The notes under the pieces were generated by a model. The model was not told the DNA's origin. It saw only the letters and a program-made list of their open reading frames with translations, and ran no database searches. Position numbers and translations under genes: made by a program. Shown here piece after piece: positions 1 through 20,105 of a stretch of 20,105 nt of DNA; positions within the stretch are counted from its first letter, which is position 1, and each line of letters begins with the position of its first letter. The DNA is from a virus. Location: UHGV virus genome UHGV-0364294, one strand, 5' to 3'.

Positions 1-560
1 CAGCAAACCCTCAGGTGTTTCAAATAGCTGTTCTTTTTACGGAAATACTTATGAACTGGCTGGAATAAAGTGCAAGAAAATGTGACTACTATCTCATTTT
101 TATCTGACATGATCTGTTGCCACTCGCTGCCAAATTGTCGCGCTAAAGCTGATTAGCACGGTGATATTTGATACTCTGGCAGACAGCAGAAATAACGGAT
201 TTAACCTAATGATGAATGACGGTAAGCAACAATCTACCTTTTTGTTTCACGATTACGCGCAACACCCCTGAGAACCGCCATGAACAAGGGTTTCATGATT
301 TGTGATTTTAGTTTGGTACGCAATTTGGTACACAACACAATTTTCACTTCAGCGGGTAGTCATCAAACTCACCATAACGCACTTCGTTGATGATGTACGT
401 GATCACCAAAAATATCGCATCCGGACTAGTTCCATCTTCATGCGCAGGCATATGTTCATGCCTACCTGTCTGCAAACCAGTAATAAGCCATTACAGGGTG
501 ATAGTGATGCATCAACTACGTTAAGCGCAGAGAAATGATGCAGTGGTGGGCGGATTGGCT

Positions 561-587
561 TGATGAAAAGGTGGAGTGCTCCACCTT
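561..587 (-). terminator. Putative intrinsic terminator of the tailspike/membrane-protein transcript
   Basis: Inverted repeat AAGGTGGAG / CTCCACCTT (568-576 / 579-587); on the minus strand the stem is followed by TTTTCATC. Lies about 90 nt downstream of the stop of the 674-961 gene. Confidence 0.45.
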
Positions 588-673
588 AACCACTATCGAA
601 GATCACAAAGCCTTGCAATCCAGTGCAAAGCTTTGTGTGTCTCAGTTTTGTTTCATCGGTAATTATGTGTTCG

Positions 674-961
674 CTACGATGCAAGAATCCATACCAATAA
701 GCATCCGATAATTGGGAAAGAAAAATCCATAAGGCTTCCTACATCCCACACGCGTGGATCAAAACCACCCCACCACGGCATATTCATACGCTTGCCATGC
801 CCGAACATTTCAATCCAGCGATATTCTGCCTGGGTGTGTTCACGCGCAATGAAGAACGTACAACCGGCTATCGCACCGTAAGCCCAGTTTCCGGTAAAAA
901 GACCAATCAGTACCTGCGCAGCCACAGCACAAAACGCATGAAGGAAAGGTGTTATATCCAT
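674..961 (-). CDS. Small integral membrane protein (95 aa, about 3 predicted TM segments), unknown function; candidate lysogenic-conversion or exclusion moron
   Basis: ATG at 959-961 preceded on the minus strand by AAGGAG with 5-nt spacing, immediately after the tailspike stop. Hydrophobic stretches FLHAFCAVAAQVLIGLF, AYGAIAGCTFFIA and FSFPIIGCLLVWILAS. The longer ORF in the track (start 1030) overlaps the tailspike and has no RBS. Confidence 0.6.
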   Translation of the reverse strand: MDITPFLHAFCAVAAQVLIGLFTGNWAYGAIAGCTFFIAREHTQAEYRWIEMFGHGKRMNMPWWGGFDPRVWDVGSLMDFSFPIIGCLLVWILAS

Positions 962-995
962 TATCGCTCCTTTAACATAAGGATAAATAAACACA

Positions 996-3134
996 TCATA
1001 AAATAGATTTCGTCTTTGTAACAATAACATCTACAAAATCGCCTGCAGATATAGCTGATGGTACTGTATCTGCAAGAGTAATCTTTCCTGAAGAGATGCT
1101 TTGCACATCTAATAATTTATTTTCAATCCCATCCGTATATACCAATTTGATATCACTGAGTGGAGGGTAATAAGTGATTGTTCCTTGGTATACATATATT
1201 TCACTACCTGAAATCGATTTCACTACATACCTGCCCCTTACAAGATTAATTTTGAGTTCAGATAAATCGGTTTTATAACAGGTAATTCCTGAACCAATGT
1301 TAGCCATACTAATATCAGTATCACTATAATAAGTAAGTGCTTTCCCTTGTTTTAAAGTAAAAGTATTTTTACTTTTCCTTGGTAAGGATGTGCTATTTTT
1401 GTAATATCTACCAGTAAAGCATAGCCATGAAAATGCAGTATTCACTACATTACCACCAGAATACACAGCTAAACGAATTGCACTAACTGGAACCCCTTCA
1501 TTATTAATCCTGATCTTAATGGAAGAAATATTAACAGCAGTGACATACCTATGGTTGGCAGAATCCCATTGCATAGAAGAAGTTATGGCTTCTGTTTGTG
1601 AGGTTATGACATTCCCATCTCTATCTAATGCATACAGGTAAATGCGAAACGATGCCGTATCTGCTGAGAATGTAAACATATCACCATTTCTTACTGGTAC
1701 ATCTCCAGATTCCCATAACAACCCAAAATTCCGCATAAAAGCAAACTTAGAAGAAACCAGGTGACGGATATTATATAAACCATCAACATCTGTTTGATAT
1801 GCTAATGCACCAACTTCTCCATTGTTAGCACTGGATATAAATGGGGTGTTAGCATTTAAAGAAAACAATGTTACTTCATCGGATATATTTTCCTGAATAT
1901 GAAATACTGCATTCCCCTTGCCATTATCAGTTACCTCGACATAAGTGTAAGGCGATGGATTGTATGGCTCATTTGTATACGCAGGAGATGAAAGCCATGT
2001 AGCTTCAATTGAGTTATTCCACGTATATTCACCAAAGTTAATTATCAACTGTTGGTTAGTTGGGGATGATGGATATCGTTCAAAACGAAACCCGTAGAAG
2101 TAATTGTTATCACCTCTTTGAATATCAATTTTACCTGCCCCCTCCATAGTTCCACCATAAAACTTATTGTGGTTATGATGATATGGATTATCAGCGAAAA
2201 TGATATTATTCGTACGATTCAGATAAAAATAGTTTTCATTTATCCATCCTTTCTCAACTCCAAGAAAATGAATTGTATCGACCTTTTTCAGGTTAAAGGT
2301 TGAGTATGCTATTGAATAATCCGTCGATGCCACCGAAGCATTATAATTTGCATATAACTGTAAGTAGTCGCAACGCTCAATGTTTATATGCTGCCCTTTT
2401 GCCCCGATAATACGAATATCCGGTGTCGTTTCAGATGAAATACCAGAATTTCTGATAATCGTTCCGAAGTTTTGTCTTGGGTTGTTAGGGTTTGATGCAT
2501 TCCCGCCAAGCAATACCCCTATTCCTGAGTGGGATATGGTAAAAACAGCATTGGTCATTTCGAGGCTGACATTACGAAGATTTAATGTCTCCGTAATAAT
2601 AAAATTACCTTCCGCTCGTAATGTTCTGGATGATTCTCGTGCATATTCTGCAGCCAAGATCAATGCAGATGTATCATCTGTTATACCATCGCCTTTTGCC
2701 CCCCACCCTCTTACATCACAATCGTCCCTCCACCGAGATATCTGCAATTCAGGATATTTTTTAGCTCCATCCGGGTCTTCTAATTGCTGCCGTAGTTGAT
2801 CAGGGTCATACTTCAGCACATTCGGAAAATAGAACTGCTGTGTACCATACGCATCATAAACAGCCATAGAATGGCCTTGCACAGTTACGAACTTGGCAAT
2901 CTGTCCGTTATATACCGGATATCCAGCAGCGTTAATGATGATTGGTTGCGAAACAGGAACGTGAGAGCCGTCTTCGTTCTCTATATAAACCTGAATCTGG
3001 TTTTCAGGATTTACCGGGTCAGTGTCAATTTTACCGATATAAATTTTGCCATTAGCTACGGCTTTAAAAGAACGCGCCATAGTGAAGAGTTGCGAAGGCA
3101 TGCTCACTACAACATTGGCTGTAATGTCTGTCAT
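996..3134 (-). CDS. Tailspike protein: P22 gp9-type N-terminal head-binding domain fused to a pectate-lyase-like beta-helix receptor-binding/depolymerase domain
   Basis: The N-terminus [11 protein letters not shown]...[36 protein letters not shown]...[12 protein letters not shown]...NVLKYDPDQ matches the P22 tailspike N-terminal domain as I recall it. Downstream, the motif [16 protein letters not shown] is typical of pectate-lyase-superfamily depolymerase domains. Length 712 aa. Confidence 0.9.
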
Positions 3135-3818: not shown

Positions 3819-3840
3819 AGCCGGGTCACTCCGGCTTTTT
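3819..3840 (+). terminator. Intrinsic terminator (possibly bidirectional) between the convergent 3633-3812 and 3826-4191 genes
   Basis: Stem AGCCGG (3819-3824), loop GTCACT, stem CCGGCT (3831-3836), followed by TTTTT. It overlaps the 3' end of the minus-strand gene. Confidence 0.6.
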
Positions 3841-4191
3841 GATATGTCGCTCGCAGAACTCAACAAGCCTGCTCATTAAGTAGCAGTAAGTCTCGTTGGC
3901 TCTTCCTGGTTCAACATCAACACCTACCCTTGAGCAGATATCGAATGCCATGTGAGCGCACTCATGGGCAATAGTAGATAGTTTGCCATTGAACACGCCT
4001 ATCACATGAAAAACACCATTCTCGCTACTCATTGTATGAGACGCTCCGTTGGCGTCCGAGTCATGCACGTCAACGCCAAGTTTTTGATGCAGGCGTTGCC
4101 ATTCTGGAAAGTCTCTACAAAACACAATTGTACCGCTCTCAAAGAGCGGAACGAGCATCTTTGGTACGTTTCCAATGTTAACTTTTTTCAT
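3826..4191 (-). CDS. Small HExxH protein (121 aa), putative zinc metallopeptidase-like (ImmA/IrrE- or SprT-like motif); function unknown
   Basis: Motif TIAHECAHMAF (hydrophobic-AHExxH). A weak RBS (AGGA) precedes the ATG at 4191; an alternative start is the Met at 4158. It occupies the sieA position between the gp16-like gene and mnt. Confidence 0.5.
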   Translation of the reverse strand: MKKVNIGNVPKMLVPLFESGTIVFCRDFPEWQRLHQKLGVDVHDSDANGASHTMSSENGVFHVIGVFNGKLSTIAHECAHMAFDICSRVGVDVEPGRANETYCYLMSRLVEFCERHIKKPE

Positions 4192-4225
4192 GGTATCCTG
4201 CGCAAAACTAAGGAGAGTTAATTAT

Positions 4226-4711
4226 ATGAAAAAATCACTGTTAATTATCCCGCTTCTGCTGGCTGGGTGCGCAAAAGTAAGCGACTATCAGGCAAGTTGC
4301 GAGCAACGCTATCCAAAGCTTAGCGATATGGCTAATTGCCTTGATGCCAGCTTGAAGAACGACTCTCGCATGGCATCAGCACCAACACCTAAGCTGTATG
4401 TCCTTGCTGCGAAGATGCTCGGGCAAGGTGTCGATGAAGGCAAGATAAGTGACACACAGGCAAGACTTGAACTTCAGAATCTTTATGTTCAATTACAAAG
4501 CCAAGAACAAGCACAACAAATAGCACAAAGCCAAGCATTCCAGCAGGCTTTATTGAATTATCAGGCTGTAAACACAATGCAAGCGATCGAGCAAAAAGCG
4601 CGCCAGCCTGTTATAACTCAACCTTACCCAACACGCGTTGACACATATACAAACTGCAATTCAGGATTTGGAAACACGGTAACATGCAACAGTAGCAGTA
4701 ATATCAGATAG
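4226..4711 (+). CDS. Phage-encoded secreted lipoprotein (161 aa) with a Q-rich predicted coiled-coil segment; candidate superinfection-exclusion or lysogenic-conversion protein
   Basis: ATG at 4226 preceded by AAGGAGAG (4210-4217). The N-terminus MKKSLLIIPLLLAGC has a signal peptide and lipobox (LAGC). The track ORF start at 4175 lacks an RBS. Confidence 0.65.
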   Translation: MKKSLLIIPLLLAGCAKVSDYQASCEQRYPKLSDMANCLDASLKNDSRMASAPTPKLYVLAAKMLGQGVDEGKISDTQARLELQNLYVQLQSQEQAQQIAQSQAFQQALLNYQAVNTMQAIEQKARQPVITQPYPTRVDTYTNCNSGFGNTVTCNSSSNIR

Positions 4712-19771: not shown

Positions 19772-20105
19772 TCATCGAAGGCATTGCGTCCTGATGTACT
19801 CCTGCAAGTAGTTAACCTGCGCGGTTATCCTGTCGATTCCACTTCGGAGACGGTAATAATTGAGTTCAGCATCTGCTGTAAGTCTTGGGATTTCTCCATC
19901 GCCCATGCTGCTGGCTCCGGTCGTTGACTTTGCACAGGTGGCGGAGACTTGCAGGCGCTTACGACCAGCAGAAACATCAGCACGGAGACTTTCGATAGTC
20001 GCGTTAGCATCAGCAAGCTCCTTTGTGTATCTGGCGTCGAGTTCTGCTACATCACGTTGACGCTTCTGCATGTCAGCGATGATGTACGTGGCTTTATCGC
20101 GCTGT
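19772..20105 (-). CDS. Rz: Rz-like i-spanin, 3' portion (start lies beyond the right edge of the window)
   Basis: ...MQKRQRDVAELDARYTKELADA...LRADVSAGRKRLQV.A.C...PRLTADAE.NYYRLR matches lambda Rz (MQMRQRDVAALDAKYTKELADA...DDVAAGRRRLHIKAVC...PRLADTAERDYFTLR) as I recall it. The reading frame is open to the window end. Confidence 0.8.
   Translation of the reverse strand, partial: QRDKATYIIADMQKRQRDVAELDARYTKELADANATIESLRADVSAGRKRLQVSATCAKSTTGASSMGDGEIPRLTADAELNYYRLRSGIDRITAQVNYLQEYIRTQCLR
19825..20016 (-). CDS. Rz1: Rz1-like o-spanin lipoprotein embedded out of frame within Rz
   Basis: 63-aa ORF in an alternative frame inside Rz; MLMLTRLSKVSVLMFLLVVSAC has a signal peptide and lipobox Cys, followed by a proline-rich segment (KSPPPVQSQRPEP), like lambda Rz1. 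Confidence 0.7.
   Translation of the reverse strand: MLMLTRLSKVSVLMFLLVVSACKSPPPVQSQRPEPAAWAMEKSQDLQQMLNSIITVSEVESTG

What the first reader, a model, noticed from the sequence alone, without database searches (positions are those of the whole stretch)
674..961. Small membrane protein co-transcribed downstream of the tailspike (lysogenic-conversion position)
In P22 the region after gene 9 carries the gtrABC O-antigen conversion cassette. Here a single 95-aa, roughly 3-TM membrane protein with a strong AAGGAG RBS follows the tailspike on the same strand and is followed by a terminator-like hairpin. I do not recognise it as GtrA or any named protein, so it is a candidate conversion or exclusion moron.
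Basis: partly seen in the sequence, partly recalled or inferred. Interest (0 to 1): 0.6.

Follow-up and report, generated by a model that had tools for sequence, protein, structure and literature searches.

The report
Conserved small membrane gene after tailspike
A real 95-residue membrane-protein gene sits just after the tailspike gene of an E. coli prophage; it belongs to a very common but unstudied phage family that follows receptor-binding genes in many kinds of phage, and its function is still unknown.

Summary
The ORF is real. It lies on the minus strand (961 to 674), has an AAGGAG ribosome site, follows the tailspike gene by 34 nt, and is followed by two strong hairpins. It is a full-length member of PHROG 1443 (E 2e-55), a stand-alone 90-130 aa family. 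No Pfam, NCBIfam, PADLOC, PDB or fold match was found.

The family occurs in 35% of complete E. coli genomes, with up to 7 copies per genome. Its central loop is nearly invariant (R40, E41, E46, W72). In podo-, sipho-, myo-, P1-like and DGR phages it sits directly downstream of the last tail fibre or tailspike gene. Orphan chromosomal copies and copies in virulent jumbo phages also exist.

It is not GtrA-like and not a fragment of a larger gene. Published LF82 RNA-seq shows that the closest studied homologue (Gally gene 17) stays at prophage background in lysogens and rises together with the tailspike gene. That argues against an autonomously expressed conversion moron.

Best reading: a passenger of receptor-binding-gene cassettes, expressed with the late operon, that acts at the inner membrane. 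The specific role is inferred only, and exclusion of incoming phage is my first guess.

The parts
674..961 (-). 95-aa ORF, small three-helix membrane protein, member of PHROG 1443
   Evidence: ORF list. phrog_1443 E 2.1e-55 over residues 1-94 of a 97-position profile. 559 homologous clusters. AF2 pLDDT 92.7, helices 4-23, 26-53, 74-94. Family invariants R40, E41, E46, W72.
967..972 (-). Shine-Dalgarno AAGGAG, 5 nt upstream of the ATG
   Evidence: Read directly from the sequence. A purine-rich ribosome-site-like stretch sits a few nt before the ATG in all six compared contexts, but only the ATG and coding sequence align.
996..3134 (-). Tailspike gene (712 aa): conserved head-binding N-terminus plus AT-rich receptor-binding part
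   Evidence: Pfam Head_binding E 9.5e-68; phrog_18162 tail fibre E 7e-300 over residues 135-712. GC is 32-38% across most of the gene, against 45-50% in the small ORF.
995..1024 (-). Weak sigma-70-like promoter match inside the tailspike 3' end (TTGTTA-18-TATGAT, 9 of 12)
   Evidence: The number of such matches in the region is not above the shuffle expectation, and the sequence is not conserved in other contexts. Probably not significant.
604..637 (-). 14-bp-stem hairpin 37 nt after the stop codon
   Evidence: RNA fold.
568..587 (-). GC-rich 8-bp hairpin followed by UUCAUC; terminator-like
   Evidence: RNA fold, region z = -4.0. Not picked up by the pattern scan.
258..673 (.). Prophage-end remnant holding a UmuD/HumD-like pseudogene fragment (about 344-528, minus strand)
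   Evidence: RefSeq annotation of the 97.9%-identical locus in strain EC11. Homology to K-12 stops at 257.
1..257 (.). Host DNA: dacD-sbcB intergenic region and the first 49 nt of sbcB (ATG at 209); prophage junction at about 257
   Evidence: 98.4% identity to K-12 MG1655 over 1-257.

Best explanation
SHOWN:
- The ORF is a real gene for a compact three-helix membrane protein of a widespread, uncharacterised, stand-alone family (PHROG 1443).
- The family behaves as the 3' passenger of receptor-binding-protein (tail fibre or tailspike) gene cassettes. It recurs directly downstream of the last such gene in unrelated phage architectures, and it is moved with or without the 3' end of that gene by recombination.
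- In this P22-like prophage, integrated in the 5' end of sbcB, it is the last gene of the late operon, 34 nt after the tailspike gene with no terminator between them. It should therefore be made by read-through of antiterminated late transcription.
- Its closest studied homologue is at background in lysogens and tracks tailspike expression.
- The helices vary between alleles, but the 36-residue segment between helices 2 and 3 is almost invariant from Escherichia to Comamonas, sphingomonads and jumbo Aeromonas phages: R40-E41-x2-Q44-A45-E46-x-R48 ... R58 ... P62-W-W-G-G-F-D ... W72.

INFERRED:
- The loop, anchored at the inner membrane, binds or acts on a conserved envelope component of Gram-negative cells. 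The helices are mainly anchors.
- Because orphan copies are kept in fixed chromosomal positions in Aeromonas and Leclercia, the protein needs no other phage protein.
- My committed guess for the role is protection of the cell's inner membrane against a second phage, in the manner of T4 Imm, P22 SieA or HK97 gp15: a block after adsorption, at genome entry. It would act during lytic growth in phages and constitutively where the gene is chromosomal.
- I put the family and passenger/late-expression part at about 0.8, and the specific exclusion mechanism at about 0.25-0.3.
For: Gene reality and family.

Receptor-binding-gene linkage (gap to the upstream gene given where measured):
- window tailspike, 34 nt
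- phage 21 and lambda-like Stf
- CFT073 and Tritos S74-type fibre
- HP1/P2-like fibre in Leclercia, gap 0
- GDSL tailspikes
- Comamonas gpJ
- P1-like fibres
- between two tailspike genes in Salmonella
- between a 383-aa protein and bAvd plus reverse transcriptase in DGR cassettes
- PHROG tail and tail-fibre families dominate the upstream neighbours.

Cassette transfer:
- vB_EcoP-611R6 carries the last 37 codons of the CFT073-type fibre in front of the ORF.
- The HC6 group keeps a decayed copy after an S74 fibre.
- Homology breakpoints lie at the ATG and inside the last 45 nt of the ORF.

Late, non-autonomous expression:
- No shared promoter.
- A terminator-like hairpin lies between the fibre or tailspike gene and the ORF in Tritos/CFT073/611R6 and in Gally.
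- LF82 RNA-seq: GALLYPH_17 averages 18.3 against a prophage median of 15.6 and a moron cut-off of 78. It rises in step with tailspike GALLYPH_16 over five conditions. PERCE_24 and TRITO_22 are also at background.
- Intact homologues occur in virulent jumbo Aeromonas phages.

Independence from other phage genes: conserved non-phage synteny in Aeromonas (pirin, ORF, RIO1) and Leclercia, and housekeeping neighbours in alphaproteobacteria.

Loop conservation with variable helices.
Against: - No sequence, profile or fold similarity to any known exclusion protein or any other characterised protein.
- Known prophage exclusion genes (sieA, gp15) are expressed in lysogens, whereas the Gally, Perceval and Tritos copies are not detectably so. 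Late-only expression is an odd time for exclusion.
- Carriers use different genome-entry routes (podo, sipho, myo), so a single conserved exclusion target is not obvious.
- Topology is unresolved. The K+R count (loop 5.9, helix 1-2 turn 0.14) favours a cytoplasmic loop. Positively charged C-tails favour a periplasmic loop. The depositors' TMHMM note for phage 21 gives 2 TMDs, N-in, C-in.
- The RNA-seq covers one strain and five conditions. Reads from the 96%-identical Tritos and Perceval copies may have been filtered out.
- The gene is dispensable: a sister prophage lacks it.
Confidence: 0.3

Rival explanations
1. One reading: a lysogenic-conversion moron, expressed from the prophage, that changes the cell surface. 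For example, it could inhibit or modulate an O-antigen/LPS assembly step at the inner membrane, as small hydrophobic phage peptides next to tailspike genes do in epsilon15 and D3 (from my own knowledge, not tested here). That would block adsorption by phages that use the same receptor.
For: - Position between the tailspike and the prophage end.
- Higher GC than the adjacent tailspike part.
- Weak promoter-like site at 1024-995, and hairpins downstream.
- In Gally: a terminator-like hairpin, a promoter-like site, then the ORF.
- Orphan chromosomal copies imply a benefit to the cell without a phage.
- Linkage to receptor-binding genes, as for gtr, oac, cor and llp.
- The family was recovered essentially only from Proteobacteria.
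Against: - LF82 RNA-seq: all three homologues are at prophage background in lysogens.
- No conserved promoter; the promoter-like counts are not above shuffles.
- The gene lies inside tail operons and is often tightly coupled to the upstream gene.
- It is present in virulent phages.
- One near-identical loop accompanies receptor-binding proteins of quite different specificities, which does not fit receptor-specific conversion.
- No Gtr, Oac or Wzy partner genes are next to it in the window.
Confidence: 0.2
2. An accessory of the lysis programme: a holin-like, antiholin-like or lysis-timing membrane protein made late.
For: - About 100 aa with three helices, like class I holins.
- Late co-expression.
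- In at least five lineages the next genes are the lysis cassette: Comamonas L004, L006/L039, E. coli L067 (Phage_holin_8, Phage_holin_3_7, GH19, spanin), and P1-like L064 (a LydA-like protein with a weak match, then LydB).
- Weak Phage_holin_8 hits in 2 of 103 members.
Against: - In the window the lysis cassette is about 19 kb away (Rz-like spanin at 19772-20071). The same holds in lambda-like and P22-like carriers.
- Adjacency to lysis genes occurs only where the lysis cassette follows the tail genes anyway.
- In Salmonella the gene lies between two tailspike genes, and in DGR phages before bAvd.
- There is no long charged C-terminal tail. Holins rarely have a long invariant loop.
- Those phages already have two holin-like genes.
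- Conserved orphan chromosomal copies are hard to explain.
Confidence: 0.12
3. A minimal membrane enzyme, or a binder of a lipid-linked intermediate (for example of undecaprenyl-phosphate-linked or lipid A/phospholipid head groups). Its invariant Arg/Glu/His/Trp cluster at the membrane surface would form an active or binding site, and its effect on phage is indirect.
For: - Invariant or near-invariant charged and aromatic residues (H8, R40, E41, E46, R48, R58, D68, W72) cluster at the ends of the helices and in the loop, while the helices drift.
- The fold of the loop is predicted with very high confidence.
- Cellular copies sit in housekeeping neighbourhoods.
- There is no partner gene.
Against: No motif, profile or fold match to any enzyme family. 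The protein is very small. No consistent metabolic neighbour was found. This is pure inference from the conservation pattern.
Confidence: 0.12
4. No function of its own. It would be a conserved stretch kept only as a homology arm for swapping receptor-binding genes, or an annotation artefact.
For: - Recombination breakpoints lie at its start and inside its 3' end.
- It decays in the HC6 group.
- It is absent from a sister prophage.
Against: - Protein-level conservation down to about 30-40% identity, with invariant residues and preserved length across classes of Proteobacteria and jumbo phages.
- 1922 of 1974 E. coli records carry copies covering at least 80% of the ORF.
- The fold is predicted with high confidence.
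Confidence: 0.03

Closest known systems
PHROG 1443 / RefSeq 'hypothetical protein' (WP_113343373.1 at the near-identical EC11 locus); phage 21 CPT_21_24 'putative membrane protein'; Gally GALLYPH_17; Perceval PERCE_24; Tritos TRITO_22
   Same: Same sequence family, full length, 84-98% identical within E. coli, and the same position after the last tail fibre or tailspike gene.
   Different: Nothing essential differs. Alleles differ in helix 1 and in the last 15 residues. None has an assigned function.
P22 gtrABC (GtrA) and Sf6/611R6-type O-acetylase conversion genes
   Same: They occupy the slot between the tailspike gene and the prophage end.
   Different: No GtrA, GtrB or acyltransferase match. 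The gene stands alone and has three helices. It is not expressed in lysogens in the one strain with data. In 611R6 it coexists with an O-acetylase rather than replacing it.
Small hydrophobic inhibitors of O-antigen polymerase in seroconverting phages (epsilon15, D3 Iap); recalled from knowledge, not tested
   Same: Small membrane proteins encoded close to the tailspike or conversion region.
   Different: Those are serotype-specific and come with a replacement polymerase. This family is conserved across genera and comes with no partner. Sequence similarity could not be tested with the libraries at hand.
Inner-membrane superinfection-exclusion proteins (T4 Imm, P22 SieA, HK97 gp15)
   Same: Small phage-encoded inner-membrane proteins with no recognisable enzymatic domain, dispensable for growth; this is the mechanism I guess at.
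   Different: No similarity was detected by the library-wide sequence, profile and fold searches; no direct pairwise comparison was run. SieA and gp15 are expressed from the prophage. Here the conserved determinant is a long loop, not the helices.
Cor (phi80/N15/T1) and Llp (T5) exclusion lipoproteins
   Same: Encoded next to receptor-binding genes.
   Different: Those are outer-membrane lipoproteins specific for one receptor (FhuA). This protein has no signal or lipobox in the typical member, and it accompanies many different receptor-binding proteins.
Class I holins (lambda S105, P22 gp13)
   Same: About 100 aa, three helices, late expression.
   Different: It has a long invariant loop and no long charged C-tail, and it is not next to the endolysin in the window or in lambda-like or P22-like carriers. 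Only 2 of 103 members give weak Phage_holin_8 hits.

Membership tests
PHROG 1443 (uncharacterised phage protein family) | Full-length match to the family profile | tested here: met
   E 2.1e-55, residues 1-94 on profile positions 1-94 of 97.
PHROG 1443 (uncharacterised phage protein family) | Conserved core motif G/A-R-E-x2-Q-A-E-x-R ... R ... P-W-x-G ... W ... D ... P and a length of 90-130 aa | tested here: met
   All invariant and near-invariant positions are present (H8, R40, E41, Q44, A45, E46, R58, W72, P83); length 95 aa.
GtrA-like O-antigen conversion protein (gtrABC) | Pfam GtrA-like domain; about 120 aa with four helices | tested here: not met
   No Pfam hit other than a sub-threshold PhoR match. 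The model has three helices.
GtrA-like O-antigen conversion protein (gtrABC) | Adjacent gtrB (bactoprenol glucosyltransferase) and gtrC genes | tested here: not met
   Only a UmuD-like pseudogene remnant and host DNA lie beyond the ORF.
Moron (autonomous transcription unit expressed in the lysogen) | Own promoter and terminator flanking the gene | tested here: inconclusive
   Hairpins lie downstream. Upstream there is only a 9/12 promoter-like match, not above the shuffle expectation and not conserved in other contexts.
Moron (autonomous transcription unit expressed in the lysogen) | Transcribed well above prophage background during lysogeny | tested here: not met
   Tested for homologues only, from published RNA-seq of LF82. 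GALLYPH_17 is 1.2x the prophage median, where the cut-off is 5x. PERCE_24 and TRITO_22 are also at background. The window's own strain was not measured.
Class I holin | Three transmembrane domains, N-out/C-in, with a charged C-terminal cytoplasmic tail | tested here: inconclusive
   Three helices. The window protein ends ...VWILAS with no charged tail. Homologues have tails averaging about 6 residues, 46% of them with K/R. Sidedness is unresolved.
Class I holin | Encoded in the lysis cassette next to the endolysin and spanin genes | tested here: not met
   The Rz-like spanin is at 19772-20071, about 19 kb away. Adjacency occurs only in phages whose lysis cassette follows the tail genes.
Inner-membrane superinfection-exclusion proteins (Imm/SieA/gp15 type) | Blocks genome entry of a superinfecting phage without blocking adsorption | not testable with these tools
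   Needs plating-efficiency, adsorption and DNA-entry assays.
Inner-membrane superinfection-exclusion proteins (Imm/SieA/gp15 type) | Sequence or fold relationship to a characterised exclusion protein | tested here: not met
Known anti-phage defence systems (PADLOC) | Match to any defence-system protein model | tested here: not met
   0 families at E up to 1.

The most novel reading that the evidence does not exclude
PHROG 1443 is a so far unrecognised class of phage (and domesticated bacterial) inner-membrane effector that travels with receptor-binding-gene cassettes across all tailed-phage morphotypes. Through its invariant Arg/Glu/Trp loop it would act on one conserved envelope target. Either it shuts the inner membrane to incoming phage genomes, or it alters the supply of lipid-linked surface-glycan receptors during late infection. 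That would be a morphotype-independent mechanism with no known homologue.
Probability: 0.3. Interest if true: 0.7.

Novelty: new member of a known kind. Interest (0 to 1): 0.42.

Why it matters
The gene is present in about a third of complete E. coli genomes, often in several intact copies. It also occurs in phages as different as P22-like, lambda-like, P2/HP1-like, P1-like, DGR-bearing and jumbo Aeromonas phages. Yet it has no Pfam family, no structural relative and no tested function.

Three features make it a cheap and well-defined target for experiments:
- it sits almost always next to the gene that decides host range;
- it has an almost invariant loop;
- orphan copies are kept in fixed chromosomal positions in some genera.

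If it controls phage entry or receptor supply, it would matter for reading prophage-mediated phage resistance in gut and clinical E. coli and for phage-therapy host-range prediction. Its conserved DNA also serves as a downstream homology arm for swapping receptor-binding genes, which bears on how host range evolves.

Tried and rejected
- **Pfam, NCBIfam and PADLOC on the protein.** Only sub-threshold hits appeared: PhoR N-terminal region at 13 bits against a cut-off of 27, and MlaA at 12 bits against 375.
- **Pfam on 103 family members.** The PhoR N-terminal hit recurs in 8 of 103 (best E 0.003). I judge it compositional (a helical hairpin followed by a Trp/Arg-rich segment) and not evidence of homology.
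- **PDB sequence searches** with the single sequence and with the family profile found nothing.
- **Exhaustive HMM search for fusions to larger proteins** found none. The only variants are a ~45-residue insertion in the loop in three members and N-terminal extensions. This rejects 'fragment of a larger gene'.
- **The extended 118-aa ORF** was rejected on N-terminal conservation.
- **A shared C-terminal motif in the upstream receptor-binding proteins** was not found. S74-type fibres are frequent but not universal.
- **Topology from charge statistics** gave contradictory signals, so I leave it open.
- **Literature searches** for phrog_1443, ybl63, phage 21 sitABCD, tailspike conversion and exclusion terms found no functional study.
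  - Kapi1's candidate conversion genes showed no LPS effect in that study, and Kapi1 was not among the phage records matching this protein.
  - The LF82 CRISPRi preprint does not mention the gene.

Full report
**1.

The ORF lies at 674..961 on the minus strand: ATG at 961-959, TAG at 676-674, 95 aa. AAGGAG is at 972-967, five bases before the ATG. The 712-aa ORF at 3134..996 on the same strand is a tailspike. It has the P22-type head-binding N-terminus (Pfam Head_binding, E 9.5e-68) and a tail-fibre PHROG over residues 135-712. Only 34 nt separate the two genes.

Downstream on the ORF strand the RNA fold gives a 14-bp hairpin (637-604). It also gives an 8-bp GC-rich hairpin (587-568) followed by UUCAUC. 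The region folds 4 sd better than shuffles.

The rest of the window is a P22-like late region: DNA-transfer proteins, portal, coat, terminase and an Rz-like spanin at 19772-20071.

Window 1-257 is 98.4% identical to the K-12 dacD-sbcB intergenic region plus the first 49 nt of sbcB. The prophage therefore ends at about 257. The ORF is the last intact gene before that end, separated from it by a UmuD/HumD-like pseudogene remnant.

**2. A real, widespread, unnamed family**

The protein matches PHROG 1443 ('unknown function') over its whole length (E 2e-55). It has no hit above threshold in Pfam, NCBIfam, PADLOC or PDB sequences.

- A word-indexed search found 559 clusters.
- An exhaustive profile search found 468 representatives at 50% identity. 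Those listed are 66-146 aa and none is fused to another domain. The ORF is therefore not a fragment.
- A 41-sequence alignment gives 19 invariant columns.
- Over 103 sequences reaching down to about 30% identity, R40, E41, E46 and W72 remain invariant. H8, Q44, A45, R58 and P83 are nearly so.
- Helix 1 and the last 15 residues come in several alleles within E. coli, while the segment between helices 2 and 3 is unchanged.

By blastn the gene is in 1924 of 5426 complete E. coli genomes, median two and up to seven copies. In every listed full-length hit it is annotated 'hypothetical protein'.

**3. Context: it follows receptor-binding genes**

| Context | Arrangement |
|---|---|
| Window, Gally | P22-like tailspike, then ORF |
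| Phage 21, Perceval, many lambda-like phages | side tail fibre, a ~92-aa protein, ORF, then converging sitABCD |
| CFT073, Tritos | S74-chaperone tail fibre, ORF, tfa fragment (annotated in CFT073), invertase |
| HP1/P2-like cluster in Leclercia | tail fibre stop codon abuts the ORF start; more tail genes follow |
| GDSL-esterase tailspikes | tailspike, then ORF |
| Comamonas | gpJ, a 72-aa ORF, then ORF |
| P1-like phage-plasmids | tail fibres, ORF, a LydA-like gene (weak match), lydB |
| Salmonella myophage | ORF between two tailspike genes |
| Two betaproteobacterial DGR cassettes | 383-aa protein, ORF, bAvd, reverse transcriptase |

Upstream neighbours across 43 loci are dominated by tail and tail-fibre PHROGs. 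They share no common C-terminal sequence.

The unit moves by recombination.
- vB_EcoP-611R6 carries the last 37 codons of the CFT073-type fibre just before the ORF, downstream of its own tailspike and O-acetylase.
- The HC6 group of phages keeps only a decayed copy behind an S74 fibre.
- Homology between contexts starts at the ATG and often ends 45 nt before the stop.
- A sister prophage in the same sbcB slot (strain DP051) has a different tailspike and only the last 24 nt of the ORF. The gene is therefore dispensable.

**4. It is not confined to temperate phages**

Intact, clearly homologous genes (GRE-x2-QAE-x-R ... KR-x-N-x-PW ... W ... D ... P) occur in the following:
- virulent jumbo Aeromonas phages, after a helicase/terminase-like gene;
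- Aeromonas phage 62AhydR11PP;
- inside the tail genes of a P22-like Aeromonas phage.

Orphan copies sit in the same non-phage position (pirin, ORF, RIO1) in at least three Aeromonas species. Others sit at a shared chromosomal locus in at least three Leclercia genomes, with non-phage neighbours where checked. Still others lie next to housekeeping genes (pnp, ligA, cfa) in alphaproteobacteria. The protein therefore does not need another phage protein.

**5. Expression evidence**

No promoter is shared between contexts. The promoter-like match at 1024-995 is 9/12 and not above chance.

In Tritos, CFT073 and 611R6 a terminator-like hairpin (GGGGC-CGAGC-GCCCC followed by GTTTTATT) lies between the fibre gene and the ORF. 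In Gally a 9-bp hairpin follows the tailspike gene. In those phages the ORF should be reached mainly by antiterminated late transcription.

Strain LF82 carries three homologues. The published RNA-seq analysis lists no moron for Gally (PMC9928086, Table 1).

| Gene | LB lysogen average | Comparison | Behaviour over five conditions |
|---|---|---|---|
| GALLYPH_17 | 18.3 | prophage median 15.6; moron cut-off 78 | rises in step with tailspike GALLYPH_16 |
| PERCE_24 | 11.5 | similar to its upstream neighbours | follows its upstream genes |
| TRITO_22 | 10.4 | above its upstream fibre genes (~6-7) | stays at floor while the fibre gene upstream of the hairpin rises |

The Gally copy is only 78-79% identical in DNA to the other two, so its reads map uniquely. 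The Tritos and Perceval copies are 96% identical, and the q30 mapping filter may depress their counts. These data cover one strain and five conditions, but they speak against an autonomously expressed conversion gene.

**6. Topology is open**

Charge counts over 103 members are as follows.

| Segment | Mean K+R |
|---|---|
| loop | 5.9 |
| helix 1-2 turn | 0.14 |
| N-tail | 0.68 |
| C-tail | 0.75 |

The positive-inside rule then puts the loop in the cytoplasm (N-in, C-out). The consistently positive C-tails argue for C-in. The depositors' TMHMM note for phage 21 gives two TMDs, N-in and C-in. Helix 2 is only weakly hydrophobic. I do not commit on sidedness.

**7. Interpretation**

Shown: a real, strongly constrained, small membrane protein; a passenger of receptor-binding-gene cassettes; co-expressed with late genes where measured; dispensable; able to persist as a lone chromosomal gene.

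Inferred: the invariant loop acts on a conserved envelope component.

- Exclusion at genome entry (Imm/SieA/gp15-like), about 0.25-0.3. This is my committed guess. It is the one role that would pay in temperate phages, virulent phages and orphan chromosomal copies alike, and such genes are typically small inner-membrane proteins. Against it stand the lack of lysogen expression and the diversity of entry routes among carriers.
- Surface-conversion moron, 0.2. Weakened by sections 3-5.
- Lysis accessory, 0.12. Adjacency to lysis cassettes occurs only where these follow the tail genes, and in the window the cassette is 19 kb away.
- Minimal membrane enzyme or lipid binder, 0.12. This rests on the conservation pattern only.
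- No function of its own, 0.03.

**8. Comparison, novelty and verdict**

The gene is a member of PHROG 1443, and both membership tests are met. It is not GtrA-like. It is not demonstrably a moron in the strict sense. It is not a holin by context. It has no detectable relation to known exclusion or defence proteins.

It is an additional member of a catalogued but unstudied family, so it is ordinary as an annotation. The cross-morphotype linkage to host-range genes, the invariant loop and the high prevalence make the family a worthwhile experimental target. Interest is moderate.

Noticed in passing
window 1-257 (junction at about 257): The P22-like prophage is integrated in the 5' end of sbcB. 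The window begins right after dacD and contains the sbcB start codon at 209 and its first 49 nt, 98.4% identical to K-12.
   Followed up: partly
window 344-528 (minus strand); also L004 10248-11795 and L010 8922-10184: A UmuD/HumD-like (S24 peptidase) pseudogene fragment lies between the ORF and the prophage end. Intact umuDC-like genes lie a few genes downstream of the same small ORF in unrelated Comamonas and metagenomic prophages.
   Followed up: no
L002 4710-4988 (phage 21 gp23); L060 3627-3908; L064 4994-5278 and 6601-6888; L021; L006 7475-7999: A second recurrent small protein family (~92-95 aa, no Pfam hit) follows side-tail-fibre genes and often sits just before the membrane ORF. It may be a fibre chaperone.
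   Followed up: partly
L038 4785-8051 and L040 (Comamonas nitrativorans, Pigmentiphaga humi): In these diversity-generating retroelement cassettes the small membrane ORF lies between the presumed variable target gene (383 aa, no Pfam hit) and bAvd plus reverse transcriptase.
   Followed up: partly
L070 3490-3650 (Escherichia phage HC6; also ZCEC08, PBM-2, ST1UNAM, 6947, HC8A): An unannotated, frame-disrupted remnant of the family (…RRRANIPWWGGFDWRAWDLPSLLD) lies directly after an 859-aa S74-type tailspike. The gene seems to have arrived with the fibre 3' end and decayed.
   Followed up: partly
L073 2965-2979 (Tritos; same in CFT073 L060 and 611R6 L003); L072 2789-2809 (Gally): Terminator-like hairpins lie between the fibre or tailspike gene and the small ORF. 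In LF82 RNA-seq, TRITO_22 stays at floor while the fibre gene upstream of the hairpin rises.
   Followed up: partly
window 996-3134: The tailspike is a mosaic. The head-binding N-terminus is about 43-45% GC. Most of the receptor-binding part is 32-38% GC and matches a 'tail fiber' PHROG (18162) rather than P22-type tailspike families.
   Followed up: no
L060 5314-6112 (CFT073) and L073 3522-4112 (Tritos): A Pin-type invertase gene lies just beyond the small ORF, with a tail-fibre-assembly gene fragment annotated between them in CFT073. This suggests a degenerate invertible fibre segment in which the ORF took the place of tfa.
   Followed up: no
window 3826-4191 (minus) and 4175-4711 (plus): Two ORFs of unknown function (phrog_1365, phrog_6067) occupy the immI/sieA-equivalent region between the DNA-transfer gene and the arc/mnt-like genes.
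   Followed up: no
L005, L016-L018 (Aeromonas) and L020, L023-L025, L029 (Leclercia): Orphan copies of the family sit at fixed non-phage chromosomal positions across species: pirin, ORF, RIO1 kinase in Aeromonas, and near prlC and an ABC-transporter operon in Leclercia.
   Followed up: partly
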